From an uncultured Acidobacteriota bacterium (GTDB taxonomy: Bacteria > Acidobacteriota > Polarisedimenticolia > J045), in contig CAYZDB010000002.1 of assembly GCA_964476985.1 (NCBI GenBank), positions 1 to 32,307 of the forward strand: a stretch of 32,307 bases of DNA, written 5' to 3'. Shown one piece after another: positions 17,987-22,199 of this stretch. Within the stretch, counting starts at the first letter, position 1, and the number at the start of each line of letters is the position of its first letter. The translations under genes and the position numbers were made by a program. The notes beneath the pieces were generated by a model. That model saw only the letters and a program-made list of their open reading frames with translations. It ran no database searches and was not told the DNA's origin.

Positions 17987-19387
17987 TCAGGGCCGCTCGG
18001 CGAGCGTGACCTCGCCGTCCAGCTCGAGCCGGAATCGCCCGCGCCCCGAGGGCGCGATCCGGATCGCCGGGCAGCGCTCCTCGAGCCGCCGCCGCAGCAG
18101 GATCAGCCGGCTCTCGAGGTTGTCCTTGATCACCGGGAGCTGCAGCGACTTGTCGAGCCGCAGCAGGCGGTTGGTGAACTCGCCGCGCCCCTCGTCGCGG
18201 TGCTCGCGCAGCACCTTGCGCAGGATCTTCGCCGGCAGCCCGCGGACCAGGTACTCGCCGTCGACCAGCACGCACTCGTCGGCGGCGTAGTAGGCGACCT
18301 CGAGCGCGGCCGGCGCGGCGCCGGGGACCGCCGTCGCCGCGTCGCGCGCCGCCCCGGGCGCGGCCGGCGGCGCCGCCCCGGCCGGCTCCTCGACCTCCTC
18401 GGTGCGCTCGCGGTGCAGCACGTTCTGGATGGCGATCGCCAGGTAGCCGCCCAGCACCTCCAGGTAGGCCCGGTCCTCCTCGTGGAAGCGGTAGGCCTGC
18501 TCGCTCTCGATGCAGAGCACGCCGACCAGGTCGTCGTGCGCCAGCAGCGGGATCCCCAGCACGCTGTCCGGGTTGGCGAGGCCCGGGAGCGGGATCCGCC
18601 GGTCCTCCGGGCAGAGCCCGCGCTCCTGCGCGCGCCGCGCGACGGCGAAGGCGTAGAGCATCTGCCGCAGCATCCCCGAGATCCGGACCGGCTTCCTCGC
18701 CTCGGCCACCATCCCGATGATCCCCTCGCCGAAGCCGACCTCCGAGCCGGCGCCCCCCGGCGGGTAGCCGCGGCTGGCGATCAGCTCCAGCCGGTCCGGC
18801 CGCTCCGAGGCCAGCAGGATCATCGAGTGGCGGAAGCCGAAGGAGTTCTCCAGCGACTCCAGGACCGAGTCGAGCAGGCCGTCGAGCGTCGCGGCGCGGT
18901 GGATCCGGTCCGAGAACTCCTGCAGCGCGCGCATCGTGAACGGGACGCCGGCGGCCGGCCGCGGCGCGGCGGCCCCCGCGGGGCGGCCCCGCTCATGCGG
19001 GACCGGTTCGATCGCCAGGACCTCGTAGATGTCGGCCCCCAGCAGCTTGAAGATCCCCTTCAGCCCGCTGTGCGAGGCGATCGCCTCGATCCGCAGCTTC
19101 ATCGACTCGAACAGCGGGCCGGCCGTCTCGGTCCGGACGAAGCGGACCGACAGGGCGTACATCTGCAGCGTGTCGGGGTCGTAGAGCCGGACCAGCGCGC
19201 GCGGGTTCTCCGCGATGTTGCGCTTGCTCTTGTTGAAGAACTGGAACGACAGCGCGACGTGCGAGGGGTCGACGTAGTCGACGTGGCTGAGCATCGCGAC
19301 GTTGGGAACGCCCGCGGCGGAGCAGGTGCAGAGCCAGGCCGGCAGCAGGCCCTGGAAGCAGGGGGTGAGCGTCTCGAGCGGGATCAT
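17987..19387 (-). CDS. Three-domain one-component regulator: PNPOx-like split-barrel + GAF + OmpR/PhoB-type winged-helix-like C-terminus
   Basis: N-terminus: LLPAWLCTCSAAGVPNVAMLSHVDYVDPSHVALSFQFFNKSKRNIAENPRALVRLYDP (PNPOx-like). Middle: LDGLLDSVLESLENSFGFRHSMILLAS..GEGIIGMVAEARKPVRISG..VLGIPLLAHDDLVGVLCIESEQAYRFHEEDRAYLEVLGGYLAIAI (GAF). C-terminus: GLPAKILRKVLREHRDEGRGEFTNRLL..NLESRLILLRRRLEE..IRIAPSGRGRFRLEL, which resembles the wHTH ...ISRLRRKLE...I.TVRG.GY.L. Confidence 0.8.
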   Translation of the reverse strand: MIPLETLTPCFQGLLPAWLCTCSAAGVPNVAMLSHVDYVDPSHVALSFQFFNKSKRNIAENPRALVRLYDPDTLQMYALSVRFVRTETAGPLFESMKLRIEAIASHSGLKGIFKLLGADIYEVLAIEPVPHERGRPAGAAAPRPAAGVPFTMRALQEFSDRIHRAATLDGLLDSVLESLENSFGFRHSMILLASERPDRLELIASRGYPPGGAGSEVGFGEGIIGMVAEARKPVRISGMLRQMLYAFAVARRAQERGLCPEDRRIPLPGLANPDSVLGIPLLAHDDLVGVLCIESEQAYRFHEEDRAYLEVLGGYLAIAIQNVLHRERTEEVEEPAGAAPPAAPGAARDAATAVPGAAPAALEVAYYAADECVLVDGEYLVRGLPAKILRKVLREHRDEGRGEFTNRLLRLDKSLQLPVIKDNLESRLILLRRRLEERCPAIRIAPSGRGRFRLELDGEVTLAERP

Positions 19388-19857
19388 CGCAGCGGCTCGC
19401 CGGCACCGGGGCCCGGCGTCTGCTCGTACAGCTCGGTCACGCGCAGCCGCAGCGCCACCGCGGGCCAGACCGCCCAGCCGGCGGTCAGCGCGCGGGGGAT
19501 GCCGATCGCCTCGAGCTGCGCGAGGAAGCCGTCGGCCTGGCGCTCGACCTCGGCCCGCTCCCCCGGCCGGGCGCGGCGCGAGGATTCGAAACGCCCCTTG
19601 ACCTGGCAGGCCCGGTTGTCGACCGGCCGGTCGAAGGCGAGCGCGATCTCGGGGTGCCGCTCGAGGTTCCGCAGCAGGGCCGGCGCGGCCCGGCCGTGGA
19701 CGAAGACGGTCAGGTGCGCGCCGTCGGGGTCGATCCGCACGGCCCAGGCCCGGGCCCCGTCCGGGCTCAGTTCGCCGTCGCGGGTGCCGACCGTGATCGA
19801 CAGGCCGGACTCCAGGTAGGCCGCAAGTTCGGCGGAAATCGACGCCAGCGAGGTCAT
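19384..19857 (-). CDS. Pyridoxamine 5'-phosphate oxidase-like (FMN-binding split-barrel) family protein
   Basis: SGLSITVGTRDGELSPDGARAWAVRIDPDGAHLTVFVHGRAAPALLRNLERHPEIALAF fits the PNPOx-family pattern. Its stop overlaps the start of the downstream regulator (ATGA at 19384-19387), so the two form an operon. Confidence 0.8.
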   Translation of the reverse strand: MTSLASISAELAAYLESGLSITVGTRDGELSPDGARAWAVRIDPDGAHLTVFVHGRAAPALLRNLERHPEIALAFDRPVDNRACQVKGRFESSRRARPGERAEVERQADGFLAQLEAIGIPRALTAGWAVWPAVALRLRVTELYEQTPGPGAGEPLR

Positions 19858-19868
19858 CGGTCGGGCCT

Positions 19869-19912
19869 TAGGAAGAGTTTAGGAAAAGTGTAGGACAGCT
19901 TGAGGAACACCG
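19869..19912 (+). promoter_or_regulatory. Four direct heptamer repeats at exact 11-bp phasing (TAGGAAG / TAGGAAA / TAGGACA / GAGGAAC); candidate operator/activator site in a divergent promoter
   Basis: Repeat starts are at 19869, 19880, 19891 and 19902. The patch is AT-enriched in an otherwise very GC-rich spacer. It is followed by the perfect 14-bp palindrome CCGCCCCGGGGCGG (19910-19923) and a -10-like TATTGT (19928-19933). Confidence 0.55.
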
Positions 19913-19985
19913 CCCCGGGGCGGTCGGTATTGTCCCCGAAACGGCCGGACGAGCCGGCCGCCGTCACCCGAGGGAGGGATACCCG

Positions 19986-20600
19986 ATGTCGCACCGCAGG
20001 AACCCGTCGCCGGCGCACCGCGCCCTGCTCCTTCTCGCCGCCCTGCCGCTGGCCGCGCTGTCCGCGCGGGCCGCCGGCCCGGCCGGCCCCGCTGCCCCCG
20101 CCACTCCCGCCGCCCCCGCCGACGCCCAGGTCGCGCGCGGCGCCTACCTGGTCAAGATCATGGTCTGCAACGACTGCCACACGCCGTGGAAGGTCGGTCC
20201 GCGCGGGCCGGAACCGGACATGTCGCGCGCGCTGTCGGGCCACCCGCAGGACCTGGTGATGCCCCCGCCCCCGGCGCTGGGCGGCGGGCCGTGGGTCTGG
20301 GCCGGCGCCGGCTCGAACACGGCGTTCGCGGGACCCTGGGGGGTCAGCTTCGCGGCGAACCTGACGCCGGACCGGGAGACCGGGCTGGGGACCTGGACCG
20401 CCGAGACCTTCCTGGCCGCGCTGCGCACCGGGCGCCACGAGGGGCAGGGGCGCCCGATCCTGCCGCCGATGCCGTACCCGTGGTTCCGCCAGGCGACGGA
20501 CGAGGACCTGCGCGCGATCTTCGCCTACCTGCAGTCGCTCGCGCCGATCCGCAACCGCGTTCCGCTGCCGGTCGAGCCGGCCGCGGCGCCCGCGCATTGA
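19986..20600 (+). CDS. Secreted mono-haem c-type cytochrome
   Basis: ATG 19986 follows GAGGGAGGG (19971-19979). Signal peptide: ALLLLAALPLAALSARAAG. Haem motif: YLVKIMVCNDCHTP (CXXCH). The distal region PILPPMPYPWF..DEDLRAIFAYLQS is typical of cytochrome c domains. Confidence 0.85.
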   Translation: MSHRRNPSPAHRALLLLAALPLAALSARAAGPAGPAAPATPAAPADAQVARGAYLVKIMVCNDCHTPWKVGPRGPEPDMSRALSGHPQDLVMPPPPALGGGPWVWAGAGSNTAFAGPWGVSFAANLTPDRETGLGTWTAETFLAALRTGRHEGQGRPILPPMPYPWFRQATDEDLRAIFAYLQSLAPIRNRVPLPVEPAAAPAH

Positions 20601-20632
20601 GCGCCGGGCCGCGCCGGCGGACGAGGACCCCG

Positions 20633-21718
20633 ATGCGCTCGTGCAGGACGGCGAGGCGGCTCGTGCCCGCGCTGCTGGTGCTGCTGGCCGGCGGCTCGGG
20701 CCTGGCGCGCTCCGGCTCTCCCGCGACGATGACCGCCGCGCCGCCCCGGCTGTCCGAGACCGGGCTCTACGCGGCGGACGGCTCGATCGACCCGCGCAAC
20801 CTGCCGTACGCGCCGCAGTACCCGCTCTGGACCGACGGCGCCGCGAAGGCCCGCTGGATCCGGCTGCCGGAAGGGGAGGCGATCGACGTCTCCGATCCCG
20901 ACGCGTGGCGCTTCCCGGCCGGGACGATCCTCTGGAAGGAGTTCGCGTTCCACGGCCGCAAGGTCGAGACGCGGATGATCTGGCAGACCGACGCGGGGAC
21001 CTGGGAGTTCGCGACCTACGCCTGGAACGAGGCGCAGACCGACGCGCTGCTGGTCCCGCCCGAGGGGATCCCCGACGCGGCCGAGATCGCGCCGGGCCGC
21101 CGCCACGCGATCCCCGGCGTCGCCGACTGCCTCTCGTGCCACGCCTCGTCGCCGTCGCCGGTGCTGGGCTTCAACGCGCTGCAGCTCTCCGACGACCGCG
21201 ACCCCCTGGCCCCGCACGCCGAGCCGCCCCGGCCCGGGATGGTGACGCTGCGCGCGCTCGTCGACTTCAACCGGCTCGACCCGCCGCGTCCCGCGTGGGC
21301 CGCCGACCCGCCGCGGATCCGCGCCGCGGACCCGGTGGCGCGCGCCGCGCTCGGCTACCTCTCCGCGAACTGCGGCCACTGCCACAACGACCGCGGCCCG
21401 CTCGCGCGCCTGGGCTTCTCGCTCCGTCACGACGAGGCCGGGGAGCGCGGCGCCCCCGAGCCGGCGCTCGCGACCGCGGTGGGGGCGCCGGGGCGCTTCG
21501 TCGTCCCGGGCGTTTCCCGCGACGACTCGCGCCTCGTCGCGCCCGGTCTTCCCGCGCACAGCGCGCTGCTGCACCGGATGGAGACGCGCCGCCCGGCGAC
21601 GCAGATGCCGCCCCTCGGGACCGTGATCGAGGACGAGGACGCGACCCGGCTGGTCCGGGCCTGGATCGTGTCGTTGAGCGCCGGGGATCCCGGGGCTATC
21701 CTCGCGCCCTCCCGCTAG
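20633..21718 (+). CDS. Secreted dihaem c-type cytochrome (resembles the SO_2930/HNE_0200-type family by the LSETGLY N-terminal motif; recollection only)
   Basis: ATG 20633 is in frame inside track ORF 20186..21718. Signal peptide: RRLVPALLVLLAGGSGLA. There are two CXXCH motifs, CLSCH and CGHCH. Confidence 0.8.
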   Translation: MRSCRTARRLVPALLVLLAGGSGLARSGSPATMTAAPPRLSETGLYAADGSIDPRNLPYAPQYPLWTDGAAKARWIRLPEGEAIDVSDPDAWRFPAGTILWKEFAFHGRKVETRMIWQTDAGTWEFATYAWNEAQTDALLVPPEGIPDAAEIAPGRRHAIPGVADCLSCHASSPSPVLGFNALQLSDDRDPLAPHAEPPRPGMVTLRALVDFNRLDPPRPAWAADPPRIRAADPVARAALGYLSANCGHCHNDRGPLARLGFSLRHDEAGERGAPEPALATAVGAPGRFVVPGVSRDDSRLVAPGLPAHSALLHRMETRRPATQMPPLGTVIEDEDATRLVRAWIVSLSAGDPGAILAPSR

Positions 21719-21785: not shown

Positions 21786-22199
21786 ATGCGGAACACGATG
21801 GCGGTCCTGCTGGTCCTGGGGGCGCTGCTGCTCGCCGGCGGGGCCACGCTGGCCGCGGACAGCCCGATCGACGCGGTGAAGAAGGCCTGCAACACGGAGC
21901 TCACCACCTTCTGCAAGGGCGTGAAGCCGGGGGACGGTCGCGTCCTCGCCTGCCTCTACGCCTTCGAAGACCAGGTCTCCGACAAGTGCACCTACGCGGT
22001 CTACAACGCGGCCGCCGAGCTCGAGCAGGCCGTCAACGCCCTGAAGTTCGTGGCCGCGCAGTGCAAGGACGATCTCCTGAAGTACTGCGGCGACGTCCAG
22101 GTCGGCGAGGGGCGCGGCCTCGCCTGTCTCGAGAAGAACGAGAAGACCGTGAGCCAGGCCTGCAAGGACGCGCTGAAGCAGACCGGTCTGAAGAAGTAG
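21786..22199 (+). CDS. Secreted cysteine-rich repeat protein (two copies of a C-x7-C-x(n)-G-x-G-R-x3-CL-x(n)-C unit)
   Basis: ATG 21786 follows GAGGAG. Signal peptide: AVLLVLGALLLAGGATLAA. Repeats: CNTELTTFCKGVKPGDGRVLACLYAFEDQVSDKC and CKDDLLKYCGDVQVGEGRGLACLEKNEKTVSQAC. This is the pattern of Pfam 'cysteine rich repeat' (PF00839-like) bacterial proteins. Confidence 0.8.
   Translation: MRNTMAVLLVLGALLLAGGATLAADSPIDAVKKACNTELTTFCKGVKPGDGRVLACLYAFEDQVSDKCTYAVYNAAAELEQAVNALKFVAAQCKDDLLKYCGDVQVGEGRGLACLEKNEKTVSQACKDALKQTGLKK

What the first reader, a model, noticed from the sequence alone, without database searches (positions are those of the whole stretch)
19869..19933. Four TAGGAA-type heptamers at exact 11-bp phasing in the divergent promoter next to a winged-helix regulator gene
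TAGGAAG (19869), TAGGAAA (19880), TAGGACA (19891) and GAGGAAC (19902) start exactly one helical turn apart, in the only AT-enriched patch of the 128-nt spacer between the PNPOx/regulator operon (ATG 19857, minus) and the cytochrome c operon (ATG 19986, plus). Head-to-tail repeats with 10-11 bp periodicity are the binding architecture of OmpR/PhoB-type winged-helix proteins (pho box: 7-bp repeats plus 4-bp spacer). The adjacent 466-aa protein ends in an OmpR-like wHTH. The last repeat sits about where a -35 element would be relative to the -10-like TATTGT (19928-19933), as in PhoB-activated promoters. A perfect 14-bp palindrome, CCGCCCCGGGGCGG (19910-19923), lies between them.
Basis: partly seen in the sequence, partly recalled or inferred. 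Interest (0 to 1): 0.6.

Follow-up and report, generated by a model that had tools for sequence, protein, structure and literature searches.

The report
Conserved 11-bp-phased TTAGGAA operator array
The four phased TAGGAA repeats are real and are conserved next to the same uncharacterised sensor-regulator gene in bacteria from several phyla, so they are most likely that regulator's DNA docking site, switching on the neighbouring cytochrome c genes; the mechanism is a familiar kind, but the regulator family is undescribed.

Summary
Observation confirmed. Units TTAGGAA (19868), TTAGGAA (19879), GTAGGAC (19890) and TGAGGAA (19901) lie exactly 11 bp apart. This is the only such array found in the 3.25-Mb, 88%-complete genome.

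An equivalent array (TTARGRW plus 4 nt; 2-6 units; spacing 11 bp, sometimes 10, 12 or 22) occurs in 75 of 81 loci that encode an orthologue of the adjacent 466-aa PNPOx-like/GAF regulator. The array follows the regulator when the target gene changes: cytochrome c in Acidobacteriota and others, a cupin in a Terriglobales MAG, a hemerythrin-like gene in Burkholderiales.

In three separate clades the last unit starts 27 bp upstream of a -10-like TAnnnT. That places it at about -39 to -33, in a spacer with no sigma-70 -35/-10 pair, which suggests an activator-dependent promoter.

The regulator's C-terminal domain models confidently as a winged helix. Its nearest structural neighbours are OmpR/PhoB-family domains, but it fails Pfam Trans_reg_C and profile-profile tests. 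It is OmpR-like in fold only and is not a shown family member.

The 14-bp palindrome is not conserved, and such palindromes are common in this genome.

Verdict: a real operator of a known type (phased direct repeats) for an uncharacterised, multi-phylum one-component regulator family. Binding and the direction of regulation are inferred, not shown.

The parts
19868..19874 (+). Unit 1, TTAGGAA. It is the most distal unit from the cytochrome c promoter and lies only 11 nt from the PNPOx start codon.
   Evidence: The equivalent unit is conserved in orthologous spacers.
19879..19885 (+). Unit 2, TTAGGAA.
   Evidence: the pair of units 1 and 2 scores 23.1 bits, and the next best pair in the genome scores 13.3.
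19890..19896 (+). Unit 3, GTAGGAC.
   Evidence: It reads CTAGGAA or GTAGGGA at the same slot in the window's clade.
19901..19907 (+). Unit 4, TGAGGAA, the promoter-proximal unit. It is conserved in this clade as TTGAG(G/C)AAC and contains GGAAC (19904-19908). It starts 27 bp upstream of the -10-like hexamer, so it lies at about -39 to -33.
19910..19923 (.). Perfect 14-bp G/C palindrome in the promoter spacer. It is judged incidental.
   Evidence: It is not conserved in orthologues. The genome holds 2688 perfect 14-bp palindromes.
19928..19933 (+). -10-like hexamer TATTGT of the cytochrome c operon promoter. It overlaps a possible ECF-type -10 (CGGT at 19925-28, 16 nt after GGAAC).
   Evidence: A TAnnnT hexamer at offset 27 from the last unit recurs in the window clade, a second Acidobacteriota clade and Burkholderiales (and hand counts). 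No transcription start site is mapped.
19973..19977 (+). Shine-Dalgarno GGAGG, 8 nt before the cytochrome c ATG.
   Evidence: conserved as GGAGG in orthologous spacers.
19986..20600 (+). Target gene 1: secreted mono-haem c-type cytochrome (CNDCH motif), 204 aa.
   Evidence: It lies divergent from the PNPOx-regulator operon in about 75 of 80 loci.
20186..21718 (+). Open frame holding target gene 2, an SO2930-family dihaem c-type cytochrome. The real start is probably between about 20600 and 20740.
   Evidence: NCBIfam TIGR03806, E 4e-48, over residues 186-497 of the frame.
21786..22199 (+). Small cysteine-rich repeat protein downstream of the cytochromes. It may belong to the same operon.
   Evidence: Pfam PF00839, E 6e-13. 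Operon membership was not tested.
19384..19857 (-). Stand-alone PNPOx-like protein, 157 aa. It is the first gene of the regulator operon and overlaps the regulator gene by 4 nt.
   Evidence: It is co-conserved with the regulator.
17987..19387 (-). One-component regulator, 466 aa: PNPOx-like beta-barrel (1-128), GAF (about 150-332), a disordered linker of about 30 aa, and a winged-helix domain (362-466).
17990..18304 (-). C-terminal winged-helix output domain of the regulator (residues 362-466), the inferred reader of the array.
   Evidence: AF2 model with pLDDT 91.4. Nearest PDB folds are BaeR, SaeR and PhoB DNA-binding domains. The helix KDNLESRLILLRRRL and the GRGRF wing are invariant.

Best explanation
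The array is the operator of the adjacent PNPOx-like/GAF/winged-helix one-component regulator (17987-19387, minus strand).

Inferred mechanism:
- Several copies of the C-terminal winged-helix domain bind head to tail, one per 11-bp unit (a 7-bp TTARGRW core plus 4 bp), on one face of the helix. A disordered linker of about 30 residues after the GAF domain would allow this.
- The promoter-proximal unit (19901-19907, about -39 to -33) stands where a -35 element is missing. A bound regulator would therefore recruit RNA polymerase to the cytochrome c operon promoter, as a class II-type activator.
- The distal units lie 11-30 nt from the PNPOx start codon, so they overlap whatever promoter or 5' end drives the PNPOx-regulator operon. 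That predicts autoregulation, probably negative.
- The signal sensed by the PNPOx-like and GAF domains is unknown. The target genes (c-type cytochromes, hemerythrin-like protein, cupin) hint at a redox, O2, NO or haem signal.

Shown here: the array exists, is non-random and is conserved; it is tied to the regulator family; the geometry relative to the -10-like element is fixed; the domain has a winged-helix fold.

Inferred: binding itself, stoichiometry, activation versus repression, and the ligand.
For: - Uniqueness: there is one array in the genome. In five genomes of 5.4-6.9 Mb, the triple pattern with at most 1 mismatch hits the regulator locus in three, hits nothing in the other two (their arrays carry 21/22-bp gaps), and hits one extra site.
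- Conservation: 75 of 81 regulator loci carry an array. Gaps are 11 bp in 130 cases, 10 bp in 19, 12 bp in 7 and 21/22 bp in 18. Across 484 kb of loci, 157 pair hits lie in the array zones and 1 lies elsewhere.
- The array follows the regulator. In L107 (43% identity) it precedes a divergent cupin gene. In Burkholderiales (44-83% identity to one another) a four-slot array precedes a hemerythrin-like gene that converges on the regulator, or lies in the divergent position. Cytochrome c homologues in two related genomes where no regulator was found have no array.
- Geometry: TAnnnT lies at offset 27 (plus multiples of 11) from the last unit in three clades. The spacer has no sigma-70 -35/-10 pair.
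- The reader domain: the C-terminal model has pLDDT 91.4 and a beta3-alpha1-beta-alpha2-alpha3-hairpin topology. Top Foldseek hits are OmpR-family DNA-binding domains: BaeR, probability 0.93; PhoB 1qqi, TM 0.59/0.61. The putative recognition helix is invariant wherever TTAGG arrays occur.
- The domain sits in the output position behind GAF, PAS and STAND-TPR sensor modules.
- Spacing of 11 or 22 bp is the documented rule for OmpR-like SARP activators (PMC10936776).
Against:
- The domain is not detectably homologous to Trans_reg_C. Pfam gives no hit at E 10. A six-frame PF00486 search finds six other genes but not this one. hhalign gives 0.2% probability. All Foldseek E-values exceed 0.05.
- The last unit ends 20 bp from the -10-like hexamer. 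That differs from SARP operators (8 bp, PMC10936776) and from pho boxes (about 10 bp, from memory).
- In 18 loci the downstream promoter looks ECF-sigma-like (GAAC-N15-18-CGT[CT]). The window also has GGAAC-N16-CGGT, so unit 4 might be a -35 element and not a binding unit.
- One locus with a near-identical recognition helix (L105, where the cytochrome c gene converges on the operon) has no array within 6 kb.
- The weight matrix was trained on the same loci that it then scored.
Confidence: 0.72

Rival explanations
1. The array is a real operator, but it is read by a different protein, for example one of the six canonical OmpR-family response regulators of this genome or a global factor. On this reading the neighbouring regulator is a bystander.
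For: The genome encodes six bona fide Trans_reg_C proteins, and that family is known to read 10-11-bp phased direct repeats. The adjacent regulator's domain fails the sequence-based family tests.
Against: The array co-occurs with this regulator family across several phyla and in three different gene arrangements. It occurs essentially once per genome, at the regulator locus. A global or two-component factor would be expected to have more sites and no fixed linkage.
Confidence: 0.1
2. The regulator binds the array but acts mainly as a repressor or autorepressor, occluding the promoters in the spacer. The cytochrome c operon would then be transcribed by an ECF-type sigma factor that uses GGAAC (19904-08) and CGGT (19925-28).
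For: An ECF-like GAAC-N15-18-CGT[CT] motif sits in exactly the unit-4 slot in 18 loci, against 0.8 expected from shuffles. The window has GGAAC-N16-CGGT. The array abuts the PNPOx start codon. In Vicinamibacterales, units 1-2 overlap a TTAAGA-N17-TATACT promoter on the minus strand. A cytochrome c paralogue in G008 lies beside an ECF-sigma-like gene.
Against: In Burkholderiales and two Acidobacteriota clades the downstream element is a sigma-70-type TAnnnT with no -35, at a fixed 27 bp. That is activator-type architecture. The window's CGGT departs from the CGT[CT] form of the motif.
Confidence: 0.2
3. The repeats are not a protein-binding site. They would be phased A-tracts giving intrinsic DNA curvature, or an UP-like element that stimulates the divergent promoters.
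For: The window units contain GGAAAAG or GGAAGAG runs phased at one helical turn, in the only AT-enriched patch (50% GC against 73% for the genome).
Against: The conserved part is the TTARG core and not the A-run. Many orthologous units (TTAAGGT, TTAGCGT, TTAGGGT) have no A-tract. Conservation of specific bases across phyla exceeds what curvature needs.
Confidence: 0.04
4. The repeats act at the RNA level, as UUCCUAA repeats in the 5' leader of the PNPOx-regulator mRNA.
For: In the window's clade the array begins 8-25 nt from the PNPOx start codon. Part of it may therefore be transcribed.
Against: There is no Rfam match. In Burkholderiales the array lies beyond the 3' end of the regulator gene, upstream of another gene, with the same orientation and the same distance to a -10-like hexamer. 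The array's register is tied to the target promoter and not to the PNPOx gene.
Confidence: 0.03

Closest known systems
PhoB and the pho box (OmpR/PhoB family, E. coli)
   Same: Both have 7-bp direct repeats with a 4-bp spacer (11-bp period), head-to-tail orientation toward the gene, a promoter lacking a -35 element, and an operator unit at about -40. The predicted fold of the reader domain superposes on the PhoB DNA-binding domain 1qqi with TM 0.59/0.61.
   Different: There is no receiver domain; the input is PNPOx-like plus GAF. There is no Pfam Trans_reg_C match. The core sequence is TTAGGAA and there are 2-6 units. The slot at about -28 is empty, so the last unit ends 20 bp from the -10-like hexamer and not about 10 bp (the pho box figure is from memory).
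SARP activators (AfsR, ActII-ORF4, DnrI) and their heptamer repeats
   Same: Both use an OmpR-like DNA-binding domain outside two-component signalling. Repeats are separated by 11 or 22 bp and overlap the -35 region (PMC10936776). Here the gaps are 11 bp in 130 cases and 21/22 bp in 18. One relative of the domain is fused to a STAND NTPase plus TPR module, as in AfsR.
   Different: SARPs carry the DNA-binding domain at the N-terminus, followed by a BTAD domain, and their 3' repeat lies 8 bp from the -10. Here the domain is C-terminal, no BTAD was found, and the 3' unit is 20 bp from the -10-like hexamer.
One-component OmpR-like regulators without a receiver domain (CadC, ToxR)
   Same: A winged-helix domain of OmpR type is coupled directly to a sensor in one polypeptide.
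   Different: In CadC and ToxR the DNA-binding domain is N-terminal and the protein is membrane-anchored. This protein appears cytoplasmic, carries the domain at the C-terminus behind GAF, and has a cofactor-type N-terminal barrel. This comparison rests on general knowledge and was not tested here.
GAF-containing transcription activators (NifA, NorR, FhlA)
   Same: A GAF sensor domain controls a DNA-binding output. Weak NCBIfam similarity of the GAF region to NifA and NorR was seen.
   Different: Those proteins are sigma-54 enhancer-binding proteins with an AAA+ domain and a Fis-type HTH, and they bind inverted repeats far upstream. None of these features is present here.

Membership tests
OmpR/PhoB-type winged-helix DNA-binding domain (Pfam Trans_reg_C, PF00486) | Match to the PF00486 profile above the gathering score | tested here: not met
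   There is no hit for the 105-aa C-terminus or for the whole protein even at E 10. A six-frame PF00486 search of the genome finds six other genes but not 17990-18304.
OmpR/PhoB-type winged-helix DNA-binding domain (Pfam Trans_reg_C, PF00486) | Detectable profile-profile or profile-sequence homology to canonical members | tested here: not met
   hhalign of A1 against six own-genome Trans_reg_C domains aligns 8 columns (LLRRRLEE with rlRkKLe) at probability 0.2%. The profile searched against PDB sequences finds no OmpR-family hit.
OmpR/PhoB-type winged-helix DNA-binding domain (Pfam Trans_reg_C, PF00486) | Fold: N-terminal beta-sheet, alpha1, beta, alpha2, recognition helix alpha3, C-terminal beta-hairpin wing | tested here: inconclusive
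   The AF2 model (pLDDT 91.4) has that order of elements plus one extra C-terminal strand. The best PDB neighbours are BaeR, SaeR and PhoB DNA-binding domains, but TM is only 0.5-0.6 and no E-value is below 0.05.
OmpR/PhoB-type winged-helix DNA-binding domain (Pfam Trans_reg_C, PF00486) | Binds direct repeats with 10-11-bp periodicity, head to tail | not testable with these tools
   Only cis evidence is available: a co-conserved 11-bp array. Binding itself needs EMSA or footprinting.
Two-component response regulator | N-terminal phospho-receiver (Response_reg) domain | tested here: not met
   Pfam finds PNPOx_N (weak) and GAF only. The full-length model shows a beta-barrel, GAF and a winged helix.
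Pho-box-type operator | 7-bp direct repeats separated by 4 bp, replacing the -35 element | tested here: met
   The matrix TTARGRW plus 4 weakly conserved positions, the dominant 11-bp gaps, and the absence of a -35/-10 consensus pair in the spacer.
Pho-box-type operator | Proximal repeat ends about 10 bp upstream of the -10 hexamer (established knowledge, from memory) | tested here: not met
   The last unit ends at 19907 and the -10-like hexamer starts at 19928, a 20-bp gap. The same offset of 27 from unit start recurs in other clades.
SARP-type operator and regulator | Repeats 11 or 22 bp apart | tested here: met
   Gaps are 11 bp in 130 cases and 21/22 bp in 18. The rule is stated in PMC10936776.
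SARP-type operator and regulator | 3' repeat 8 bp from the -10, and an N-terminal OmpR-like domain followed by BTAD | tested here: not met
   The gap is 20 bp. No BTAD domain was found and the DNA-binding domain is C-terminal.

The most novel reading that the evidence does not exclude
The array and its neighbour define an undescribed one-component regulator family found in several phyla. The sensor is a PNPOx-like cofactor barrel plus GAF. The output is a new winged-helix family with no Pfam model, also found behind PAS and STAND-TPR sensors. The family has its own DNA code (TTARGRW every 11 bp, last unit 27 bp before the -10-like hexamer) and a regulon of essentially one promoter per genome. 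It would switch periplasmic c-type cytochromes, hemerythrin-like proteins or cupins in response to a redox, O2, NO or haem signal.
Probability: 0.55. Interest if true: 0.6.

Novelty: new variant of a known kind. Interest (0 to 1): 0.5.

Why it matters
Gene regulation in Acidobacteriota and other soil phyla known mainly from metagenomes is almost unstudied. This locus offers a regulator, an operator and a target, all predicted from sequence, with a precise motif and promoter geometry. The family is large: the output domain alone has 1079 clusters at 50% identity, and current annotation calls these proteins only 'GAF domain-containing protein' or 'adenylate cyclase'. The prediction can be tested directly by EMSA and reporter assays. 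Cultured Burkholderiales, for example Ideonella sp. YS5, carry a homologous module. Confirmation would add a new DNA-binding output domain to the winged-helix repertoire. It would also link a flavin- or haem-type sensor to control of respiratory cytochromes.

Tried and rejected
- Pfam and NCBIfam scans of the C-terminal domain gave no hit.
- A profile of the domain against PDB sequences gave only a spurious ornithine decarboxylase hit at E 0.76.
- hhalign against this genome's own OmpR-type domains gave essentially nothing.
- The Rfam scan of the spacer found nothing.
- The consensus promoter and terminator scan found nothing in 19700-20100.
- The palindrome as a second operator was rejected: it is not conserved and is common in the genome.
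- Reading TTGAGG (19900-05) as a sigma-70 -35 was rejected, because the spacer to TATTGT would be 22 bp.
- A search for further regulon sites found only two weak pairs, C23:~7260 and C91:1737 (13 bits against 23). Neither has a -10-like hexamer at the right offset, and the C91 pair lies at the edge of long open frames.
- A literature search for this domain combination found no relevant paper. One search call failed on syntax.
- Co-occurrence of array and regulator across all 61 related genomes was not run. A pattern loose enough to catch the divergent arrays would give one or more chance hits per genome.

Full report
**1. The observation**

- Heptamers at 19869, 19880, 19891 and 19902.
- Palindrome at 19910-19923.
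- TATTGT at 19928-19933.
- PNPOx start codon on the minus strand at 19857.
- Cytochrome c start codon at 19986, with a GGAGG Shine-Dalgarno at 19973-19977.

In the register defined by orthologues, the units are TTAGGAA (19868-74), TTAGGAA (19879-85), GTAGGAC (19890-96) and TGAGGAA (19901-07).

The window is contig C2 of a 3.25-Mb assembly with 516 contigs, 73% GC and 88% completeness.

**2. Is it more than chance?**

- TAGGA occurs 558 times on both strands. AGGA x3 and x4 at 11-bp spacing occur only at this locus.
- A 7-mer weight matrix finds exactly one triple array above 18 bits at period 11 and none at periods 8-10 or 12-14.
- The best pair scores 23.1 bits, against 13.3 for the runner-up.
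- In mononucleotide shuffles, an exact 5-mer repeated three times at any period from 8 to 14 arose in 13 of 5000 shuffles of the spacer. It arose in 6 of 20000 shuffles of the 50%-GC patch.

The array is not a chance feature. The palindrome is different. The genome has 2688 perfect 14-bp palindromes, about one per 1.2 kb, and 486 of them are G/C only.

**3. The genes around it**

On the minus strand there are two genes that overlap by 4 nt.
- A 157-aa PNPOx-like protein (19384-19857).
- A 466-aa protein (17987-19387) with a weak PNPOx_N match, a clear GAF domain (E 8e-18) and a C-terminal 105 residues with no Pfam or NCBIfam match.

On the plus strand there are three genes.
- A secreted c-type cytochrome (19986-20600).
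- An SO2930-family dihaem cytochrome (TIGR03806, E 4e-48).
- A small cysteine-rich repeat protein.

A full-length AF2 model (mean pLDDT 70) shows three domains.
- A beta-barrel at residues 1-128.
- A GAF domain at about 150-332.
- A compact C-terminal domain at 362-466 with pLDDT around 90.

The domains are joined by disordered linkers at 132-148 and 331-359.

**4. Conservation of the array**

Whole-genome searches of relatives found full-length orthologues at 50-84% identity. The protein database shows more than 100 close homologues. They are annotated only as 'GAF domain-containing protein' or 'adenylate cyclase'.

A scan of species-representative genomes returned 80 loci. By record title they come from Acidobacteriota (mostly Vicinamibacteria), Zixibacteria, Planctomycetota, Ignavibacteriales, Gemmatimonadaceae, Delta- and Betaproteobacteria.

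The divergent arrangement, PNPOx-regulator on one side and cytochrome c on the other, holds in about 75 of the 80 loci. The spacers are otherwise unalignable, yet nearly all contain TTAGG- or TTAAG-type units in phase.

The derived matrix is T-T-A-(G/A)-G-(A/G)-(A/T) followed by four weakly conserved positions.

Chain building gives these numbers.
- Arrays in 75 of 81 loci.
- 2-6 units per array.
- Gaps of 11 bp in 130 cases, 10 bp in 19, 12 bp in 7 and 21/22 bp in 18.

Base autocorrelation peaks at lags 11, 22 and 33. Within the 484 kb of fetched loci, 157 pair hits of at least 12 bits fall in the array zones and one falls elsewhere. One caveat applies: the matrix was trained on these same spacers.

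**5. The array follows the regulator, not the cytochrome**

- In a Terriglobales MAG (L107, regulator 43% identical), three perfect TTAGGAA units at 11 bp precede a divergent cupin gene (PF07883) in place of a cytochrome.
- In Betaproteobacteria (L108-L110, and 14 further Burkholderiales genomes, L125-L139) most loci have a four-slot array at 11-bp phase. In the majority it lies beyond the 3' end of the regulator gene, upstream of a hemerythrin-like gene (PF01814, E 6.5e-5, just under the cut-off) that converges on the regulator. In three loci it lies in the divergent position.
- Cytochrome c homologues (51-55% identity) in two related genomes where no regulator was found have no array upstream.
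- In five genomes of 5.4-6.9 Mb, the triple pattern with at most one mismatch hits the regulator locus in three, nothing in two, and one extra site. The two without a hit have arrays interrupted by 21/22-bp gaps.
- The putative recognition helix KDNLE(S/T)RLILLRRR(L/I) is invariant in the Acidobacteriota-type proteins and in L107. It is slightly altered (SDNLEARL(V/I)LLQRRL) in Betaproteobacteria, whose units are also more degenerate.
- One exception is L105, a Planctomycetota MAG in which the cytochrome c gene converges on the operon. It has the conserved helix but no array within the 6-kb locus.

**6. Promoter geometry**

A -10-like TAnnnT hexamer peaks at offset 27 from the first base of the last unit. 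Secondary peaks at 38 and 49 arise where the chain stopped one or two units early.

Hand counts on the printed sequences give offset 27 in each of these.
- The window: 19901 to 19928.
- Its clade: TAGCTT, TACCGT, TAGGTT, TACGGT.
- A second Acidobacteriota clade: TAGAGT, TACAGT, TACATT.
- Burkholderiales: TAGACT, TACAGT, TATCGT, TAAGCT.

If the hexamer spans -12 to -7, the last unit spans about -39 to -33. No sigma-70 -35/-10 pair exists in the spacer on either strand. This is the layout of an activator-dependent promoter.

There is a complication. In 18 Vicinamibacterales-type loci the slot after the last good unit reads (C/G)GAAC, followed 15-18 nt later by CGT(C/T). That is an ECF-sigma-like motif, and shuffles give 0.8 such loci on average. 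The window's unit 4 contains GGAAC, followed 16 nt later by CGGT. The sigma factor that reads this promoter is therefore uncertain. Unit 4 may double as a -35 element.

On the other side, many Vicinamibacterales loci carry a conserved GAGTATAGC box just left of unit 1. On the minus strand it reads TATACT, 17 bp from TTAAGA, which is the reverse complement of unit 2's TCTTAA. That looks like a promoter for the PNPOx-regulator operon overlapping units 1-2, so autoregulation is likely.

The window's clade lacks this box, and its PNPOx start codon lies only 11 nt from unit 1. The operon's promoter must therefore lie within or beyond the array.

**7. The reader domain**

A 21-sequence alignment of the C-terminal 109 residues gives an AF2 model with pLDDT 91.4 and pTM 0.84. 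Its topology is three strands, helix, strand, short helix, long helix, beta-hairpin and a final strand.

Foldseek against the PDB ranks OmpR-family proteins first.
- BaeR 4b09: probability 0.93, TM 0.56.
- SaeR DNA-binding domain: TM 0.55/0.62.
- PhoB domain 1qqi: TM 0.59/0.61, rmsd 3.0 Å.

No hit reaches E below 0.05, and other winged helices (ORC, ESCRT-II, ScpA/B) follow closely.

Sequence tests fail.
- No Pfam hit.
- No PDB sequence hit.
- Not found by a six-frame PF00486 search that finds six canonical genes in the same genome.
- hhalign probability 0.2%, aligning only LLRRRLEE with rlRkKLe.

By eye, the LRRRLEE ... GRGRF(R/L) arrangement recalls the LRkKLe ... GvGY motif of the family, but this is only a resemblance.

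A profile search of 1.84 billion representative proteins finds 1079 clusters at E of 1e-3 or better, and 712 at 1e-10 or better. In a sample of them the domain always sits at the C-terminus of the hit. It follows PNPOx-GAF, GAF alone, PAS, or a STAND NTPase with MalT-like TPR. That is the behaviour of a modular DNA-binding output domain.

**8. Mechanism proposed**

The regulator would bind the array head to tail, one winged helix per 11-bp unit, on one face of the DNA.
- The proximal unit at about -39 to -33 would substitute for the missing -35 and recruit RNA polymerase to the target promoter.
- Occupancy of the distal units would interfere with the divergent PNPOx-regulator promoter.

The 11/22-bp rule matches what is documented for OmpR-like SARP activators (PMC10936776). 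The distance to the -10-like hexamer does not match: 20 bp after the unit end here, against 8 bp for SARPs.

Binding, stoichiometry, the sign of regulation and the ligand are inferences. The target genes (cytochromes c, hemerythrin-like protein, cupin), the cofactor-type barrel and the GAF domain point loosely to a redox, O2, NO or haem signal.

**9. Rivals**

- Another factor reads the array (0.10). This is countered by the multi-phylum linkage to this regulator and by the single site per genome.
- The regulator represses an ECF-type promoter (0.20). This is not exclusive of binding. The GAAC-N16-CGT subclade supports it and the sigma-70-type clades argue against it.
- Intrinsic curvature or an UP-like element (0.04). 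The conserved bases are the TTARG core and not the A-tracts.
- An RNA leader element (0.03). There is no Rfam hit, and the Burkholderiales arrangement separates the array from the PNPOx gene.

**10. Verdict**

The type of element, a phased direct-repeat operator for a winged-helix activator, is well known. Three things are new.
- The regulator family and its unmodelled output domain.
- The specific motif and geometry.
- The breadth of conservation.

I found no paper describing this domain combination.

Novelty: new variant of a known kind. Interest: 0.5.

Noticed in passing
L057-L059, L063-L066, L073, L074, L076, L079, L082 and others; window 19904-19928: An ECF-sigma-like motif, GAAC-N15-18-CGT(C/T), lies 15-16 bp after the last array unit in 18 orthologous loci, against 0.8 expected from shuffles. 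It sits in the slot that the window's unit 4 (GGAAC) occupies. This suggests the cytochrome c operon is read by an ECF-type sigma factor in at least one subclade.
   Followed up: partly
Left edge of the array in many Vicinamibacterales loci, e.g. L058, L064, L076: A conserved GAGTATAGC box reads TATACT on the minus strand, 17 bp from TTAAGA (the reverse complement of unit 2). It is a likely promoter of the PNPOx-regulator operon overlapping units 1-2. The window's clade lacks it.
   Followed up: partly
Whole genome G000; window 19910-19923: Perfect 14-bp palindromes are very frequent in this 73%-GC genome: 2688 in total, or 827 per Mb, of which 486 are G/C only. Isolated G/C palindromes should not be read as operators here.
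   Followed up: yes
G000 contig C23, around 7260, minus strand: A weak second candidate array, ATAAGGG-TGAA-GTAAGGG-TTCAGT-GGTAGGA (pair score 13.3 bits against 23.1 at the main site), lies in an AT-richer stretch upstream of GGAGGAAA. No -10-like hexamer sits at offset 27, and the downstream gene was not identified.
   Followed up: partly
Proteins P0175, P0205, P0151: The regulator's C-terminal winged-helix domain, which has no Pfam model, also occurs behind a STAND NTPase with MalT-like TPR (852 aa, two copies of the domain matched), behind PAS (335 aa) and behind GAF alone (about 300 aa). It is a modular output domain with 1079 clusters at 50% identity.
   Followed up: partly
L091 and L103: In two loci the PNPOx gene is reduced to its last 30-50 codons and the cytochrome c gene follows almost directly, with no array. 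This is either a real deletion of the spacer or a MAG assembly artefact.
   Followed up: no
L118 (G008:C4:212037-215582): A cytochrome c homologue (51% identity), in a related genome where the regulator was not found, lies directly downstream of an ECF-sigma-like gene and has no TTAGG array.
   Followed up: no
L108/L125 and L139 (Ideonella sp. YS5, NZ_JBPZHD010000019.1 and a second contig): A cultured betaproteobacterium carries two paralogues of the regulator (44-46% identity to the window's protein). One has an array upstream of a convergent hemerythrin-like gene, which makes this organism a practical test system.
   Followed up: partly
window 21786-22199: A small ORF with two Pfam 'cysteine rich repeat' (PF00839) matches follows the two cytochrome genes. 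It may be part of the regulated operon.
   Followed up: no
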